Below are positions 8,839 to 36,471 of a DNA stretch of 64,000 bases, piece after piece; positions within the stretch are counted from its first letter, which is position 1; every line of letters begins with the position of its first letter. Under the pieces are notes generated by a model. That model did no database searches and had not been told where the DNA came from. It saw nothing but the letters and a program-made list of their open reading frames with translations. The DNA comes from Oligoflexia bacterium. GTDB lineage: Bacteria; Bdellovibrionota; UBA1018. The DNA lies in contig CAVWVI010000001.1 in the NCBI GenBank assembly GCA_963758495.1, forward strand, positions 128,001 to 192,000. The letters run 5' to 3'. The translations under genes were made by a program, and so were the position numbers.

Positions 8839-9974
8839 ATGAAACTAGTAAGATCATTAAGTATATTAACTTTAGCTACTTTGGGTTCTTTAGCAGTAGA
8901 ATCTATCAGCTATGCAACCGAAAAGGCGCCTTTAACCTTTCGGGATAGGCTCAAACACCTATTCGCTTGTACCCACCACATAGAAGATGACCAGCACTCA
9001 GAAGAACCTCAGAATGTAATAGAGACCCCCTGCGTAGTAAGTGAACTCGTGAACCCAGTAGTAATAAAACAGAAATCACAACTTGAAAAACTAGACTTGG
9101 ATTCATTTGACTATATGGCTCATTTTTTAGACCCGGAGTCTTTGGACCATCTCTCTCATGCAAGTCACAGTCTTGAAAGTACAATCAATCAAGTAAAACC
9201 TCTGCTTAATAAAACGAATTTATTTAAAACTATCAATGAATCAGAACTTATGGAGATTAAGTCATGATGCAGAAAGAGTACTTAAATATAATGAAACAGA
9301 AAAAGTAGCCAGAACTGATAGATGATGTGAGATTGGATTTCCCAATATAGCGTTGAATTTGCTCTCTTGAAGAATAATGACCCAGAATTATTTGATCGAA
9401 TTGCTTATCATCTCAGATCCACTTTTATTAAAGTATTTAATAAGGTATTTCCGATTGCAAAAAAATTAAACAATCAATCATCACGACTTAAACTTCTCCG
9501 AGATCCTGACTAAAATTTCAGAGATTTCTCCTCATGTAGAGAATCTCATCATAAAAGAACTTGAAAAAGACCATATAGTGGATAAAGCTGAAATTTACAG
9601 ATTTTTAGCTCACATACCATTAATCGAGATTTTCTTTTTAAGTGTCTTGATTTAGTTAGAGAATTAAATATTGAGGAAAATATAGATAATTATCAAGAGC
9701 ACTCCCATTTGAAGCCAACGCATCTCTTAAGTCTATAAAAAAGAAGCTTCTTTATGGGGTAGCGTTTAACCCTATTTCTGATCAAGAAGTAATGGATGAA
9801 TTATTTAAGCTTCTACCAGAGACTCTTGAAAAAGACACCAATCTAATTCAATTTAAATTATACAAAGAAAACAGGGGCACTTTAAAAGCTTATAGCTGGT
9901 CTGGGGTCACGTCGTCTCTGATTTTTAGATTTACACCATCAAAGCATAAAGTTTGTACTTCCACAGCTAACTAA
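8839..9974 (+). pseudogene. Secreted F-box-like protein, fragmented
   Basis: Signal-peptide-like MKLVRSLSILTLATLGSLAVESISYA, then an F-box-like helix pattern LEKLDLDSFDYMAHFLDPESLDHLSHASHSL. Stop at 9267, with coding-like fragments in shifting frames to about 9974. Confidence 0.5.
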
Positions 9975-10154
9975 TCTTGGAACGACCATTCTAAAAATAT
10001 TACTTCTATTAACTCGTTGTAACTAAAGAACGTGGATTGGTCACAACCCCGTTATTTGTATTTTTAGGAGTTTCTTCATTAGATGCTATTGAACCAGAGC
10101 TTTCATTATCTTCATGAAACTTTGGAGTTAATATTGGACTCTGTAACTTGATTA

Positions 10155-12197
10155 TTATTTAGATCTATCATATTCATTATTGAGTGCATTTAGTATTTCC
10201 AAGCTTTCATCCAGCGTATCATAAGCCGCTACAGGTTGCGCTCTTCTCTCGCTTTCATCACGCTTTAGATCATCTTTAGTAGCTCTAAGAGCCATACTAC
10301 TCTCATCTGGCATCATTTTCGGAACTATTTTAGAAAATACAAATGGTGACTGTATAGGATTGGGTAAATTTGTTACTTGCGGTTCTGACTCTGGAATTTC
10401 GCTTGCCTTCTTTAGATTAGCAATCTGTATTTTTAAATTTTCAAGATCGGTATTAATTCGTACTCGCGTCGCGTTTGCAATGGCTTCCTTTAACTCCTGT
10501 TCTTGATTGTATCGATTTATTTTTAACTGAATTATTTTTTTATTATCTTCTGTGGCTTTAATTGTAGAGGCGCTTAACCCATCCCCGTTTATGTCAACAT
10601 TTTTTATATTTTCATCATAGCCACTACTACCAATACGTTTTTGTATTGCTGCGATTTCTGTTGCTGCGCTTTGATCACCTAAGCGGCCAAGTGGATGTGT
10701 TTCTTTATGTTGCTTAATGAAATCCTCAGTTTTTTTATTTTTTGTTTGGGTTTCATCATACGGATTAACGTTATTATCAATATTATTGTTTACAATATTT
10801 AAATGTTTATCAAGATGTTCGAATTGTATTTGTCTAACCTCGTCAGGTCCAAGACCTGCCTGGGACCAACCCGCCTCAGAAATAGCATGAATACTCTGTT
10901 TTCTATTCAGTTCTTTGTTGAGTTGAGCATTTCTTTCTTCAAATGCAGTGTTTGATTTTTGTTGTGTTTTATTCAGCCATTCTGATGCTTGATCTAAGTT
11001 TTTTATAATACTTTTATCGGTCTGTGTCTGATCTGCTTCGTTATTTTTATATTCTTCTTTAATTGAATTGATAGTTTTTTGATTGTGTTCAATGGATGTA
11101 TTTACGACCTTTTGATAAACTTTTTCCTTTTCAATGAGGACTTCTTTTCCTCTTTCTGGGCCAAGCACCATGGTTTGCATGAAGCTTCGAGCTGTTTGAG
11201 CACCTCCAACAGCGTCTAATGCAATACCTCCATTTTCAATGTCCTTTTTTAAATTTTCATCCAAACTCTGATCTTTACCTAGACTCGCCCCAGTTGTGGC
11301 ACCATATACCATAGAAGAACTAGCCAATTCTTTTACTGTTTTATGTTTATTTTCATTCTCATGTAATTGGGTACTTAAGCCACGGACGGGGTTACCTACT
11401 TGTTCTAATCGTTTTTCTCGTCCTTCCCCATTCTGATAGAGCATTCTATTTTGAATATTTTCATCCATGACTTCTGCTGTTTTACCAGCAGCACTACCAA
11501 ACACCTGTCCAATTACAGGTACAGGAGCATGAGCCAAACCAATAGCTGTCAAGCTTGCCCCAGATGTCAGACCTTTTGCACCTTTGGCTATAACAGGGTC
11601 CATATTATTAGGAATAAATGACTTAATCGCAATACTCCCTTTGTTCTTAGATGCACCTTTGGCAGAAAACTGATTTCCATTTCCAGAAATAGGAGAAAGT
11701 GGCGGTGAAAAATCAGATTTACCATTTAAAGAAGGGGTGTCGCGCTTGGATTCCTTATACGGTGTCGTTGAATGTTGCGAAGAATGATTGGCTTGGGAAT
11801 TACCGTGTGAGTGAGTAGCAGATAACTGCGACAGCCCACTGGAAGCTGCATTTACAAGAGTCTCCACTGGATGGAATGCCTTATGAACTACTTTATTAAA
11901 AGTGTCATTTTTTCCATCGATATGTTTTTCATGATTGATTAACTCATGGTCTTCCTTTGCTTTTTTAATCTGACTTTGCCCCTCTTCTCTTATTTTTACC
12001 ATCTCACTGGTCGCTGGAACACGTTTGTATTTTCTATTATTTAAAATATCTTTTGCTTTGTTTCTTATCTTTTTCATGTTTTCTATTTTTTGCTTTTGTT
12101 GCTGTAATTGCTCGGGAGTGAGAATAGTAGCCAACACGTAAGATGAAGTGAACAAAAGAAGAAACATTAATAAACCCGTAAAACGGAAAGGCTTCAT
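10155..12197 (-). CDS. Hypothetical secreted protein, N/Q/K-rich, coiled-coil
   Basis: 680-aa ORF with signal peptide MKPFRFTGLLMFLLLFTSSYVLA; no recognisable domain. Confidence 0.8.
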   Translation of the reverse strand: MKPFRFTGLLMFLLLFTSSYVLATILTPEQLQQQKQKIENMKKIRNKAKDILNNRKYKRVPATSEMVKIREEGQSQIKKAKEDHELINHEKHIDGKNDTFNKVVHKAFHPVETLVNAASSGLSQLSATHSHGNSQANHSSQHSTTPYKESKRDTPSLNGKSDFSPPLSPISGNGNQFSAKGASKNKGSIAIKSFIPNNMDPVIAKGAKGLTSGASLTAIGLAHAPVPVIGQVFGSAAGKTAEVMDENIQNRMLYQNGEGREKRLEQVGNPVRGLSTQLHENENKHKTVKELASSSMVYGATTGASLGKDQSLDENLKKDIENGGIALDAVGGAQTARSFMQTMVLGPERGKEVLIEKEKVYQKVVNTSIEHNQKTINSIKEEYKNNEADQTQTDKSIIKNLDQASEWLNKTQQKSNTAFEERNAQLNKELNRKQSIHAISEAGWSQAGLGPDEVRQIQFEHLDKHLNIVNNNIDNNVNPYDETQTKNKKTEDFIKQHKETHPLGRLGDQSAATEIAAIQKRIGSSGYDENIKNVDINGDGLSASTIKATEDNKKIIQLKINRYNQEQELKEAIANATRVRINTDLENLKIQIANLKKASEIPESEPQVTNLPNPIQSPFVFSKIVPKMMPDESSMALRATKDDLKRDESERRAQPVAAYDTLDESLEILNALNNEYDRSK

Positions 12198-35375: not shown

Positions 35376-35730
35376 GTAATATCCACAGTATTCAGGCCTA
35401 ATCCGTTCTCTCCGATTCATTGTGAGTACTTTCACGAAGACACAAGCACTCACAATGAATCGGAGGGGAGAATGGTTTTAACACTTTAGAGCCTGACAAG
35501 ATAATCGCTTTCAGTTGCAATCGAGAGGGAGGATTCCGCTCCGACTCAGAGCAGCTTTAGAACTAATCTGTTTTAATTTCAAAAACTTAGACACCTACCA
35601 CAGAAGCAAAAGAGATAATTTTTATATAAATTTAATAAAAATATAAAAATAAATTTTACATATACTTAAAATAAGTATATAAACTTCCTATAATCTAAAG
35701 ATAATAAATTTTTAAACAAATGAAGGAAAT

Positions 35731-36471
35731 ATGATTTTTATAAAAATTCTAATCTGGACTATCGTTTCAACTTTTGCTTTCGTGAATACAACCTACGCAA
35801 ATCCAGATCCTTCTATTACTCAGGGAGATATCGTCACTACAACTACTAAGCATTGTTCCTACAACTGCTTATATCCAGAGGAAAGTACGTTTGCCCTCAG
35901 GGCAGTATGTTGCACTCTTGGAGGCATGGCAGGGTCTATCGTAACTGGCGCAATAGGTCAAGCTATAGGAGTCCCACTAATGCCTTATGCAGCTGTCTTT
36001 TTTCCAATAGATATAATTACAGGTGCTTGCGGTGGATGGCTTTTGAGTGGATGTAAGATCACAACTGAAAGCGAACTTGAGTTGAGCTACCCGGCTGGCC
36101 CTATACAGGAAAGAATGACTGAAGAAGATGACTCTTGCCCGATTTGTCTGGAAAATTTTTCTATTCCAGCAGAAGAAGGCAATCCAACTTCCCATAAGAT
36201 CGTTGTCATTGCTCCATGCAAACATAAAACATGTGAACCGTGTTTCAAAACTCTTTTAAAAAGCGAACTCACAGAAAAATGCCCTCTCTGCCGAAGAGAA
36301 ATTCTTAACGGTGACAAAATAGAAATTTTTCAGTCAATTTCGGCTCCTCATTTGCCAGGTTTACCCAATTCGAAAGATCAAAATGAAGCCTCTGCACGTC
36401 CTTCAACTGAGGATGACTCTGTTGGTAGTAACACTCCTGCTCCCGATCACACTCTGATTGTTACCCCATAG
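35731..36471 (+). CDS. Signal-peptide/TM RING-finger protein, paralog 3
   Basis: CPIC...APCKHKTCEPC...CPLC; same architecture as paralogs 1 and 2. Confidence 0.88.
   Translation: MIFIKILIWTIVSTFAFVNTTYANPDPSITQGDIVTTTTKHCSYNCLYPEESTFALRAVCCTLGGMAGSIVTGAIGQAIGVPLMPYAAVFFPIDIITGACGGWLLSGCKITTESELELSYPAGPIQERMTEEDDSCPICLENFSIPAEEGNPTSHKIVVIAPCKHKTCEPCFKTLLKSELTEKCPLCRREILNGDKIEIFQSISAPHLPGLPNSKDQNEASARPSTEDDSVGSNTPAPDHTLIVTP

What the first reader, a model, noticed from the sequence alone, without database searches (positions are those of the whole stretch)
8839..36471. A signal-peptide-exported arsenal of eukaryote-type ubiquitin-system proteins in a probable Bdellovibrionota genome
Seen: within about 28 kb there are four RING proteins, a Deltex/PARP module, an F-box-like gene and two variable propeller proteins. 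All have N-terminal signal-peptide-like sequences, and the window contains no ubiquitin, E1 or E2 gene. Known: RING and F-box effectors typify bacteria living in eukaryotic cells and are usually T3SS/T4SS substrates without Sec signals; characterised Bdellovibrionota mostly prey on bacteria or are free-living. Inference: this organism may be a protist symbiont, parasite or predator delivering effectors through a Sec-dependent route.
Basis: inference. Interest (0 to 1): 0.75.

Follow-up and report, generated by a model that had tools for sequence, protein, structure and literature searches.

The report
Predatory-lineage bacteria exporting eukaryotic ubiquitin ligases
One branch of a bacterial group known for hunting other bacteria carries many export-tagged copies of the enzymes that eukaryotic cells use to tag proteins with ubiquitin, including Parkin-like ligases, which suggests that this branch has switched to attacking or living inside eukaryotic microbes.

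Summary
Confirmed and wider than reported. The window holds four RING genes (three paralogues plus a WWE-RING-Deltex-RWD-PARP16-like fusion), all with signal peptides; the F-box-like gene is a broken copy. The genome (Bdellovibrionota, family UBA1018) has 19 RING matches (15 pass a strict signal-peptide rule; background 27%), five complete RING1-IBR-RING2 (RBR) ligases, about 30 ankyrin ORFs, a USP domain and a signal-peptide mitochondrial carrier. No ubiquitin, E2 or JAB was found. There is a type II secretion system, but no type III or VI system or ATP/ADP translocase was found. All nine RING-positive genomes of the family fall in one ten-genome clade (SH-aLRT 99-100 without one poorly covered genome), which keeps the Kil predation secretin. 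Best reading: a predator-derived clade that lives in or attacks microbial eukaryotes and exports effectors through Sec and its ancestral T2SS. The strategy is known from Babela and Amoebophilus. New are the lineage, the RBR ligases (a 2026 review says none are known in bacteria) and the exported Deltex-PARP fusion. No host, expression or activity is shown.

The parts
8839..10020 (+). Broken F-box-like gene (first ORF 8839-9267; the rest lies in other frames with stops); intact paralogue at C3:186575-187594
   Evidence: blastn 68% over 399 nt; blastp E 1e-32; no Pfam hit; Atlas F-box lead 0.89
10155..12197 (-). 680-aa orphan with signal peptide, low-complexity and coiled-coil-like stretches; candidate exported protein
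   Evidence: signal-peptide rule passed; no Pfam, no Atlas hit, no paralogue
16932..17975 (-). Signal peptide + RCC1-repeat propeller
   Evidence: PF13540 E 7e-26
18136..20730 (-). Signal peptide + WWE + RING-H2 + Deltex C-terminal domain + RWD + PARP16-like ADP-ribosyltransferase (likely start ATG at 20700)
   Evidence: Pfam DTC 1e-47, PARP 2e-12, ARTD15_N 1e-10, WWE 5e-8; His303 and Glu329 align with the DTX2 His/Glu pair; only DTC match in 401 phylum genomes
20720..22339 (-). Signal peptide + repeated propeller-like blades + helical tail, directly upstream of the Deltex-PARP gene
   Evidence: sequence repeats; weak DUF4394
22622..22945 (+). Truncated paralogue of the RCC1-repeat gene
   Evidence: 52% identity to 16932-17975; PF13540
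32632..33381 (+). RING paralogue 1: signal peptide, two moderately hydrophobic segments, RING-HC, Pro/Ser tail
   Evidence: only its two neighbours found as homologues
33573..34484 (-). Split AbiEii nucleotidyltransferase gene between RING paralogues 1 and 2
   Evidence: two ORFs, PF08843 E 7e-11 and 7e-14
34656..35375 (+). RING paralogue 2
   Evidence: 59% identical to paralogue 1, 78% at DNA level including upstream DNA
35731..36471 (+). RING paralogue 3
   Evidence: 45-55% identical to paralogues 1 and 2
45113..46999 (+).
56841..59369 (-). 842-aa signal-peptide protein ending in an Lcl_C-like domain; that domain ends 18 ORFs of the genome, 7 of them RING or RBR proteins
   Evidence: PF07603 E 5e-5; own profile

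Best explanation
The window is a sample of a genome-wide arsenal aimed at a eukaryotic cell. One clade of the Bdellovibrionota family UBA1018 took up eukaryotic domains (RING, RBR, Deltex, PARP16-like, F-box, USP, mitochondrial carrier) and put a Sec signal peptide in front of each. Most likely it spends part of its life inside a microbial eukaryote, free in the cytoplasm or in a leaky vacuole. Steps: (1) Sec carries the proteins to the periplasm (signal peptides shown by heuristic, export inferred); (2) the ancestral type II secretion system releases them (system shown, substrates inferred); (3) they work with the host's E1, E2 and ubiquitin, since the bacterium encodes none that I could find (inferred). 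RING and RBR proteins ubiquitinate targets picked by their ankyrin, LbH, propeller or lectin-like partner domains. The Deltex-PARP fusion probably adds a single ADP-ribose and then ubiquitinates it in one chain (catalytic residues shown, activity inferred). The carrier either sits in the bacterium's inner membrane to import host metabolites or goes to host mitochondria (inferred).
For: 19 RING matches, 14 over the Pfam cut-off, 15 with strict signal peptide. Five full RBR ORFs with the RING2 Gly-Cys motif; one aligns over RING1-IBR-RING2 with ARIH1 (E 3e-11) and its model returns only RBR ligases among the 41 listed fold hits (best E 3e-9). USP domain E 1e-20. 30 ankyrin ORFs, 21 with strict signal peptide. 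Mitochondrial carriers in G000 and four relatives, 6 of 6 ORFs with signal peptide. RING in 9 of 75 family genomes and 1 of 52 other class genomes; the nine plus G045 form one clade; relatives' RING ORFs also carry signal peptides (11 of 18 strict, 16 of 18 with a hydrophobic N-terminus). Complete gspC-N locus; the four secretins are T2SS, type IVa pilus and two Tad; no VipB or sheath. Same recipe in the amoeba parasite Babela (PMC4378268).
Against: No host, RNA or activity data. The genome is not reduced (3.66 Mb), keeps purine and pyrimidine synthesis genes, flagellar genes and the Kil locus, and has no ATP/ADP translocase: unlike obligate endosymbionts. GspD is in 127 of 127 class genomes, so it says nothing specific. 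Cys-rich zinc fingers must cross the oxidising periplasm, and a six-helix carrier or a RING behind two hydrophobic segments would by default stay in the inner membrane (general knowledge). The His two residues after the RBR catalytic Cys is kept in only 1 of 15 RING2 motifs seen. Several genes are broken. The signal-peptide rule is a heuristic with false positives such as CTP synthase and CarB.
Confidence: 0.6

Rival explanations
1. Free-living predator of bacteria that meets eukaryotes only briefly. The proteins are a defence against grazing protists, or weapons for killing eukaryotic cells by contact, released through the T2SS, vesicles or the Kil/Tad apparatus and carried in by lectin-like or LbH domains.
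For: Kil secretin kept in 74 of 75 family genomes including all 10 clade members; unreduced genome with flagella and nucleotide synthesis; no translocase; Lcl_C-like domain on 7 RING/RBR ORFs; exported GH81 glucanase, ricin-B lectin and two Anthrax_toxA-like proteins.
Against: No dedicated delivery machine was found; ligases need sustained access to host E1/E2; ankyrin expansions and mitochondrial carriers are typical of intracellular bacteria (PMC4378268, PMC3252375); PurM was not found in 6 of 10 clade genomes, though also not in 18 of 65 other family genomes.
Confidence: 0.25
2. The domains are not active ligases in a host. They are membrane-anchored or surface-displayed binding modules, or the decaying remains of a past host association.
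For: Broken F-box-like, RCC1, RBR, USP and Lcl copies; hydrophobic hairpins before three window RINGs; RBR His mostly replaced.
Against: Zinc ligands and the catalytic Gly-Cys are invariant in 14 aligned RBRs; the Deltex His/Glu pair is intact; recent tandem duplication of the RING genes fits turnover under selection.
Confidence: 0.1
3. The RINGs serve a bacterial ubiquitin-like system of the organism itself.
For: Genome is 92% complete, so a system could be missing; the UQ_con search rang in no control genome and the ubiquitin and Prok-E2_B controls stayed under cut-off.
Against: No JAB with a working control; ThiF genes have no Ubl/E2/JAB neighbours; signal peptides would move the ligases away from a cytoplasmic ATP-dependent cascade.
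Confidence: 0.02
4. Eukaryotic or giant-virus contamination of the bin.
For: It does seem to happen in the class: the two G014 RING ORFs lack signal peptides and look viral (resemblance recalled, not tested).
Against: The genes are intron-free, lie between glmM, ftsH and proS on a 578-kb contig, have GC of 0.36-0.44 like the genome, and orthologous RBRs occur in related genomes at 53-80% identity.
Confidence: 0.02

Closest known systems
Babela massiliensis (Dependentiae/TM6), PMC4378268 (passages read)
   Same: T2SS as the only detected secretion system; signal-peptide ankyrins (79 of 126); RING, F-box, secreted USPs and mitochondrial carriers; grows in amoebae.
   Different: Babela is an obligate parasite with few metabolic enzymes and three ATP/ADP translocases. 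G000 is another phylum, unreduced, with Kil and flagella, no translocase, many RINGs, and RBR and Deltex ligases not mentioned in the passages read.
Amoebophilus asiaticus APD1/APD2 effectors, PMC3482391 (passages read)
   Same: Sec-dependent effectors with F-box, U-box and DUB domains behind a signal peptide, modular and polymorphic.
   Different: There the signal carries a lipobox and a conserved N-terminal prodomain; here mostly type I signals, and the shared module (Lcl_C-like) is C-terminal.
Eukaryotic RBR ligases (ARIH1/ARIH2, Parkin, HOIL-1, RNF216)
   Same: RING1-IBR-RING2 order, zinc ligands and catalytic Cys.
   Different: Bacterial, signal peptide, ankyrin or coiled-coil N-terminus, Lcl_C-like tail in place of the Ariadne domain, His after the Cys mostly replaced. 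PMC13720258 (2026, passages read) states that bacterial RBR counterparts have not been identified.
Deltex ligases (DTX1/2/3L) and PARP16/6/8-type transferases
   Same: RING-DTC with the His/Glu pair for ADP-ribose ubiquitination; ARTD15_N + PARP with His763 and Tyr798 and no catalytic Glu in the third position (triad assignment recalled).
   Different: Writer and ligase are in one exported chain. Such fusions are not unique: 4 of 156 homologues cover both halves, none with the leading signal peptide + WWE arrangement.
Legionella LncP, PMC3252375 (passages read); Simkania SneRING, PMC12591485 (passages read)
   Same: Bacterial mitochondrial carrier; bacterial zinc RING ligase, both in amoeba-infecting bacteria.
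   Different: LncP avoids Sec and goes through Dot/Icm; the carriers here have an added Sec signal.
UBA1018 (Bdellonasia) as predators of bacteria, PMC13200544 (passages read)
   Same: Same family; Kil/Tad system and flagellum kept.
   Different: The words 'eukaryot' and 'symbio' occur 0 times in that paper's main text; the arsenal is confined to one subclade.

Membership tests
RBR E3 ligases | RING1-IBR-RING2 in order with conserved zinc ligands | tested here: met
   fold search (model mean pLDDT 58, low global TM-score)
RBR E3 ligases | Catalytic Cys in RING2 (ARIH1 C357) | tested here: met
   aligned (numbering from the chain; role recalled); G292 and C293 invariant in 14 sequences
RBR E3 ligases | His two residues after the catalytic Cys | tested here: not met
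   kept in 1 of 15 motifs; its role is recalled, and whether it is required in all RBRs was not checked
RBR E3 ligases | E3-ubiquitin thioester and ligase activity | not testable with these tools
   needs biochemistry
Deltex E3 ligases | RING followed by DTC with the His/Glu pair | tested here: met
   His303 and Glu329, 26 residues apart as DTX2 His582 and Glu608
Deltex E3 ligases | Ubiquitination of ADP-ribose | not testable with these tools
   needs biochemistry
F-box proteins (8839-9267) | F-box motif in an intact gene | tested here: not met
   no Pfam hit; gene broken. Genome-wide only one sub-threshold PF12937 match
Babela/Amoebophilus-type Sec/T2SS effector arsenal | Signal peptides on eukaryote-like proteins | tested here: met
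   (heuristic)
Babela/Amoebophilus-type Sec/T2SS effector arsenal | T2SS present, no T3SS, T6SS or effector T4SS | tested here: met
   the one VirB10 lies in an integrase/VirD4 element and was not found in 5 of 5 clade relatives; genome 92% complete
Obligate protist endosymbionts | ATP/ADP translocase and reduced metabolism | tested here: not met
   no TLC match (no control genome rang); PurM, CarB, PyrD, CTP synthase present
Obligate protist endosymbionts | Replication inside a eukaryotic host | not testable with these tools
   no host data
Bacterial Ub-like systems (Bub/Bil, Cap2-type) | E1, E2, Ubl and JAB in one operon | tested here: not met
Predatory Bdellovibrionota | Kil/Tad system and flagellum | tested here: met
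   locus C3:836110-854714; secretin in 74 of 75 family genomes; flagellar genes

The most novel reading that the evidence does not exclude
A clade of Bdellovibrio-like predators has turned its invasion kit (Kil/Tad, flagellum, T2SS) on microbial eukaryotes, enters them, and rewires their ubiquitin system with active RBR ligases of a class not yet reported in bacteria and with a one-chain writer of ADP-ribose-ubiquitin marks, while importing host metabolites through a mitochondrial carrier placed in its own membrane by an added signal peptide.
Probability: 0.3. Interest if true: 0.92.

Novelty: new variant of a known kind. Interest (0 to 1): 0.8.

Why it matters
It points to a shift from bacterial prey to eukaryotic cells inside a phylum studied as predators of bacteria, at a defined branch with close relatives that lack the arsenal, so the origin of a host-associated lifestyle can be followed genome by genome. 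It supplies candidate bacterial RBR ligases, a class that a 2026 review lists as not yet found in bacteria, and a compact Deltex-PARP fusion for testing how ADP-ribose-ubiquitin marks are written. It also shows that a Sec/T2SS route to the host ubiquitin system arose in yet another phylum.

Tried and rejected
Sequencing runs: none was listed for 18136-22339; this says nothing about expression. Single-sequence fold of the RBR protein failed (pLDDT 39); the 14-sequence model reached 58. Full IQ-TREE searches timed out; FastTree on 60 rows placed G058 (377 of 1687 columns) outside while the other nine had support 0.999; support on the fixed 60-row tree was 0 because that search was unfinished, 88 on the 30-row tree. 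The AU test for adding G102 to the clade did not finish. Codon usage and GC did not separate effectors from other genes. An ATP/ADP translocase was not found. The T4SS as delivery route was rejected. The Atlas gave nothing for ORF 10155-12197. The G068 carrier match was dropped: its locus holds signalling proteins. The G014 RINGs were set aside as probably foreign. Earlier-finding look-ups by sequence, place and words found nothing on this arsenal. No complex prediction was run.
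Full report
Observation. The window is G000:C1:128001-192000 of a 3.66-Mb, five-contig genome, 92% complete. Pfam confirms three RING paralogues at 32632-36471 and a WWE-RING-DTC-RWD-ARTD15_N-PARP protein at 18136-20730, so four RING genes in all; an RCC1 propeller, a second repeat protein and an RCC1 fragment lie beside them. The F-box-like ORF is the first piece of a broken copy of an intact gene on C3. 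With my heuristic signal-peptide rule all four RING ORFs and both propellers pass, the F-box-like ORF and the RCC1 fragment do not, and 0 of 10 control ORFs pass. The three small RINGs arose by local duplication (76-83% DNA identity), have no homologues elsewhere in the protein collection and carry two moderately hydrophobic segments before the RING.

The arsenal is genome-wide. PF13639 gives 19 matches at E<=0.01, 14 over the cut-off. Fifteen of the 19 pass the strict rule against 502 of 1881 soluble proteins and 13 of 403 members of cytosolic families, a control partly defined by the same rule. I scanned 287 of 372 selected candidates (of 788 rule-positive genes among 3467 called) against Pfam. 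They include ankyrin, Sel1, TPR, HEAT and LRR proteins, three protein kinases, zf-AN1, RAP, Vps62, APP1, PEBP, two Anthrax_toxA-like proteins, a GH81 glucanase and a mitochondrial carrier, besides many ordinary envelope proteins, many orphans and some clear false positives. A USP domain (E 1e-20) lies in a separate frame after a 905-aa signal-peptide ORF. An Lcl_C-like domain ends 18 ORFs, seven of them RING or RBR.

RBR ligases. Five full-length ORFs have RING1, IBR and a RING2 with a Gly-Cys motif, and a sixth copy is split. One aligns with ARIH1 across all three domains, its Cys on ARIH1 C357 (E 3e-11); a profile of 14 such proteins hits ARIH2 at 1e-19; the predicted model (pLDDT 58) returns RBR ligases in all 41 listed hits. 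IBR matches occur in 11 of 75 family genomes. In 16 loci fetched from relatives the RING2 motif was found in nine ORFs of five genomes (G107, G058, G059, G042, G102); the loci of G043, G044, G045, G110 and G057 gave none with my pattern. The His after the Cys is mostly replaced. A 2026 review states that bacterial counterparts of HECT, RBR, RCR and RZ ligases have not been identified (PMC13720258, passages). One homologue is already auto-annotated as an IBR-domain protein in NCBI, and I searched for RBRs only within this family, so other bacteria may have them.

Deltex-PARP. The DTC is the only one in 401 sampled phylum genomes. His303 and Glu329 align with the DTX2 pair needed for ADP-ribose ubiquitination (PMC13714323, passages). 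The C-terminal half matches PARP16 (E 4e-12). Closest relatives of the two halves are eukaryote-like or unnamed proteins; 4 of 156 homologues cover both halves, so the pairing exists elsewhere. Two unnamed PARP homologues have signal-peptide-like N-termini (P0006, P0019), so other bacteria may export this domain.

No own ubiquitin system. Ubiquitin, UQ_con, Prok-E2_B and JAB gave no match; only the JAB control rang over the cut-off. The ThiF genes sit beside a kinase, aconitase and acyl-transferase-like genes.

Export machinery. The four secretins belong to a complete gspC-N T2SS, a type IVa pilus and two Tad loci, one of them a large Tad locus with FHA-domain genes that I read as the Kil system (assignment by reading the genes). 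VipB and contractile sheath were not found with working controls. The single VirB10 lies in an integrase/VirD4 element and was not found in five clade relatives. GspD occurs in 127 of 127 class genomes: the route would be an inherited machine given new cargo.

Placement and distribution. GlmM is 76-83% identical to records of the UBA1018 family, described as probable predators of bacteria (PMC13200544, passages). RING matches occur in 10 of 127 class genomes: G000, eight family members and G014, whose two ORFs lack signal peptides. A tree of four linked housekeeping genes from 60 of the 127 genomes groups G000, G107, G110, G060, G058, G059 and G042-G045. Without G058 and other poorly covered or distant rows, support is SH-aLRT 99 (29 rows) and 100 (24 rows, mixture model). 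FastTree misplaced G058. The clade holds all nine RING-positive family genomes, 9 of 11 IBR-positive, 7 of 11 F-box-positive and all five genuine carrier-positive genomes, and 3-48 ankyrin matches per genome, while most others have under ten. G102 (20 ankyrin, 3 F-box, 6 IBR matches) is a long branch of unresolved position, possibly a second origin. Outside the class only 2 further genomes of the phylum sample of 401 have a RING match. Kin are not independent, so this is one event, not ten.

Lifestyle. Against obligate endosymbiosis: no translocase, PurM and pyrimidine genes present, flagella, Kil secretin in 74 of 75 family genomes. For host dependence in part of the clade: PurM was not found in 6 of 10 clade genomes, including all four of genus g2, which carry the carriers. 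All six carrier ORFs have an added signal peptide and a low-complexity linker. A cleaved signal would leave the N-terminus in the periplasm, the equivalent of the mitochondrial intermembrane space, which fits use as the bacterium's own importer (inference).

Mechanism and odds. Shown: domains, catalytic residues, signal-like N-termini, T2SS, clade restriction. Inferred: export, host, activity. A eukaryote-directed role is about 0.85 likely; intracellular life with Sec/T2SS delivery 0.6; brief contact or grazing defence 0.25; relic or non-catalytic 0.1; own system or contamination 0.04 together.

Comparison and novelty. It works like Babela massiliensis (PMC4378268, passages) and Amoebophilus (PMC3482391, passages), so the Sec route is not new. 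It fails the membership test for obligate endosymbionts on translocase and reduction. Searches combining Bdellovibrionota, UBA1018 or Oligoflexia with endosymbiont, protist, amoeba, ankyrin or ciliate terms returned nothing on this clade (listings, plus passages of PMC9868349); searches supplied the precedents. PMC6387759 (passages) added nothing. The library lacks most subscription papers and I read no supplements; tables such as the additional files of PMC3482391 could list bacterial RBRs. Verdict: real, a new variant of a known kind, interest 0.8.

Noticed in passing
G000:C1:34033-35109 (L142:11-1087); L185, L186, L187, L189, L191: Mitochondrial carrier proteins with an added Sec signal peptide in five clade genomes; two distinct types.
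   Followed up: partly
G014, L097 and L098: Two RING ORFs without signal peptide that look like giant-virus genes, on a 188-kb contig of a bacterial bin; possible contamination or integrated virus.
   Followed up: no
G102 (L261, L269), G057, G090: Long-branch or unplaced family members with F-box, IBR or ankyrin genes; G102 has three RBRs close together. G090's Kil secretin is as close to G000's (75%) as those of clade members.
   Followed up: partly
L110:3991-5538 and L145:11-1057: Two signal-peptide proteins with weak Anthrax_toxA (adenylate cyclase) matches, one next to an ankyrin-RING gene.
   Followed up: no
G000:C3:295396-306469: Integrative element with integrase, VirD4 and a minimal T4SS gene set.
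   Followed up: partly
G000:C3:1163519-1171066: Run of a 1316-aa signal-peptide RING gene, a 905-aa signal-peptide coiled-coil gene and a USP domain in a separate frame.
   Followed up: partly
L084-L088, L091, L092, L096, L101, L122:8983-9915: Clade-wide family: signal peptide, Cys-rich cap, left-handed beta-helix repeats of variable number, C-terminal RING.
   Followed up: partly
window 7395-8511: Split phage-integrase-like gene just upstream of the broken F-box-like gene.
   Followed up: no
window 48338-49477 and 49718-52625: A multi-copy IS-like ORF followed by a GC-rich (0.55) DJ-1/SDR/oxidoreductase cassette.
   Followed up: no
L130:11-3289, L144:11-2134, L122:11-3052, L161:12591-15032: Exported GH81 beta-1,3-glucanase with CBM56, ricin-B lectin protein, ice-binding adhesin-like protein and a pretoxin-HINT protein; the glucanase may hint at a host or prey with beta-glucan.
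   Followed up: no
G042-G045: All four genomes of genus g2 carry a second, divergent GlmM-like gene (45-51% identity).
   Followed up: no
P0022, P0037, P0036, P0113: Deltex plus PARP16-like fusions in unnamed eukaryote-like or giant-virus-like proteins, in both domain orders.
   Followed up: partly
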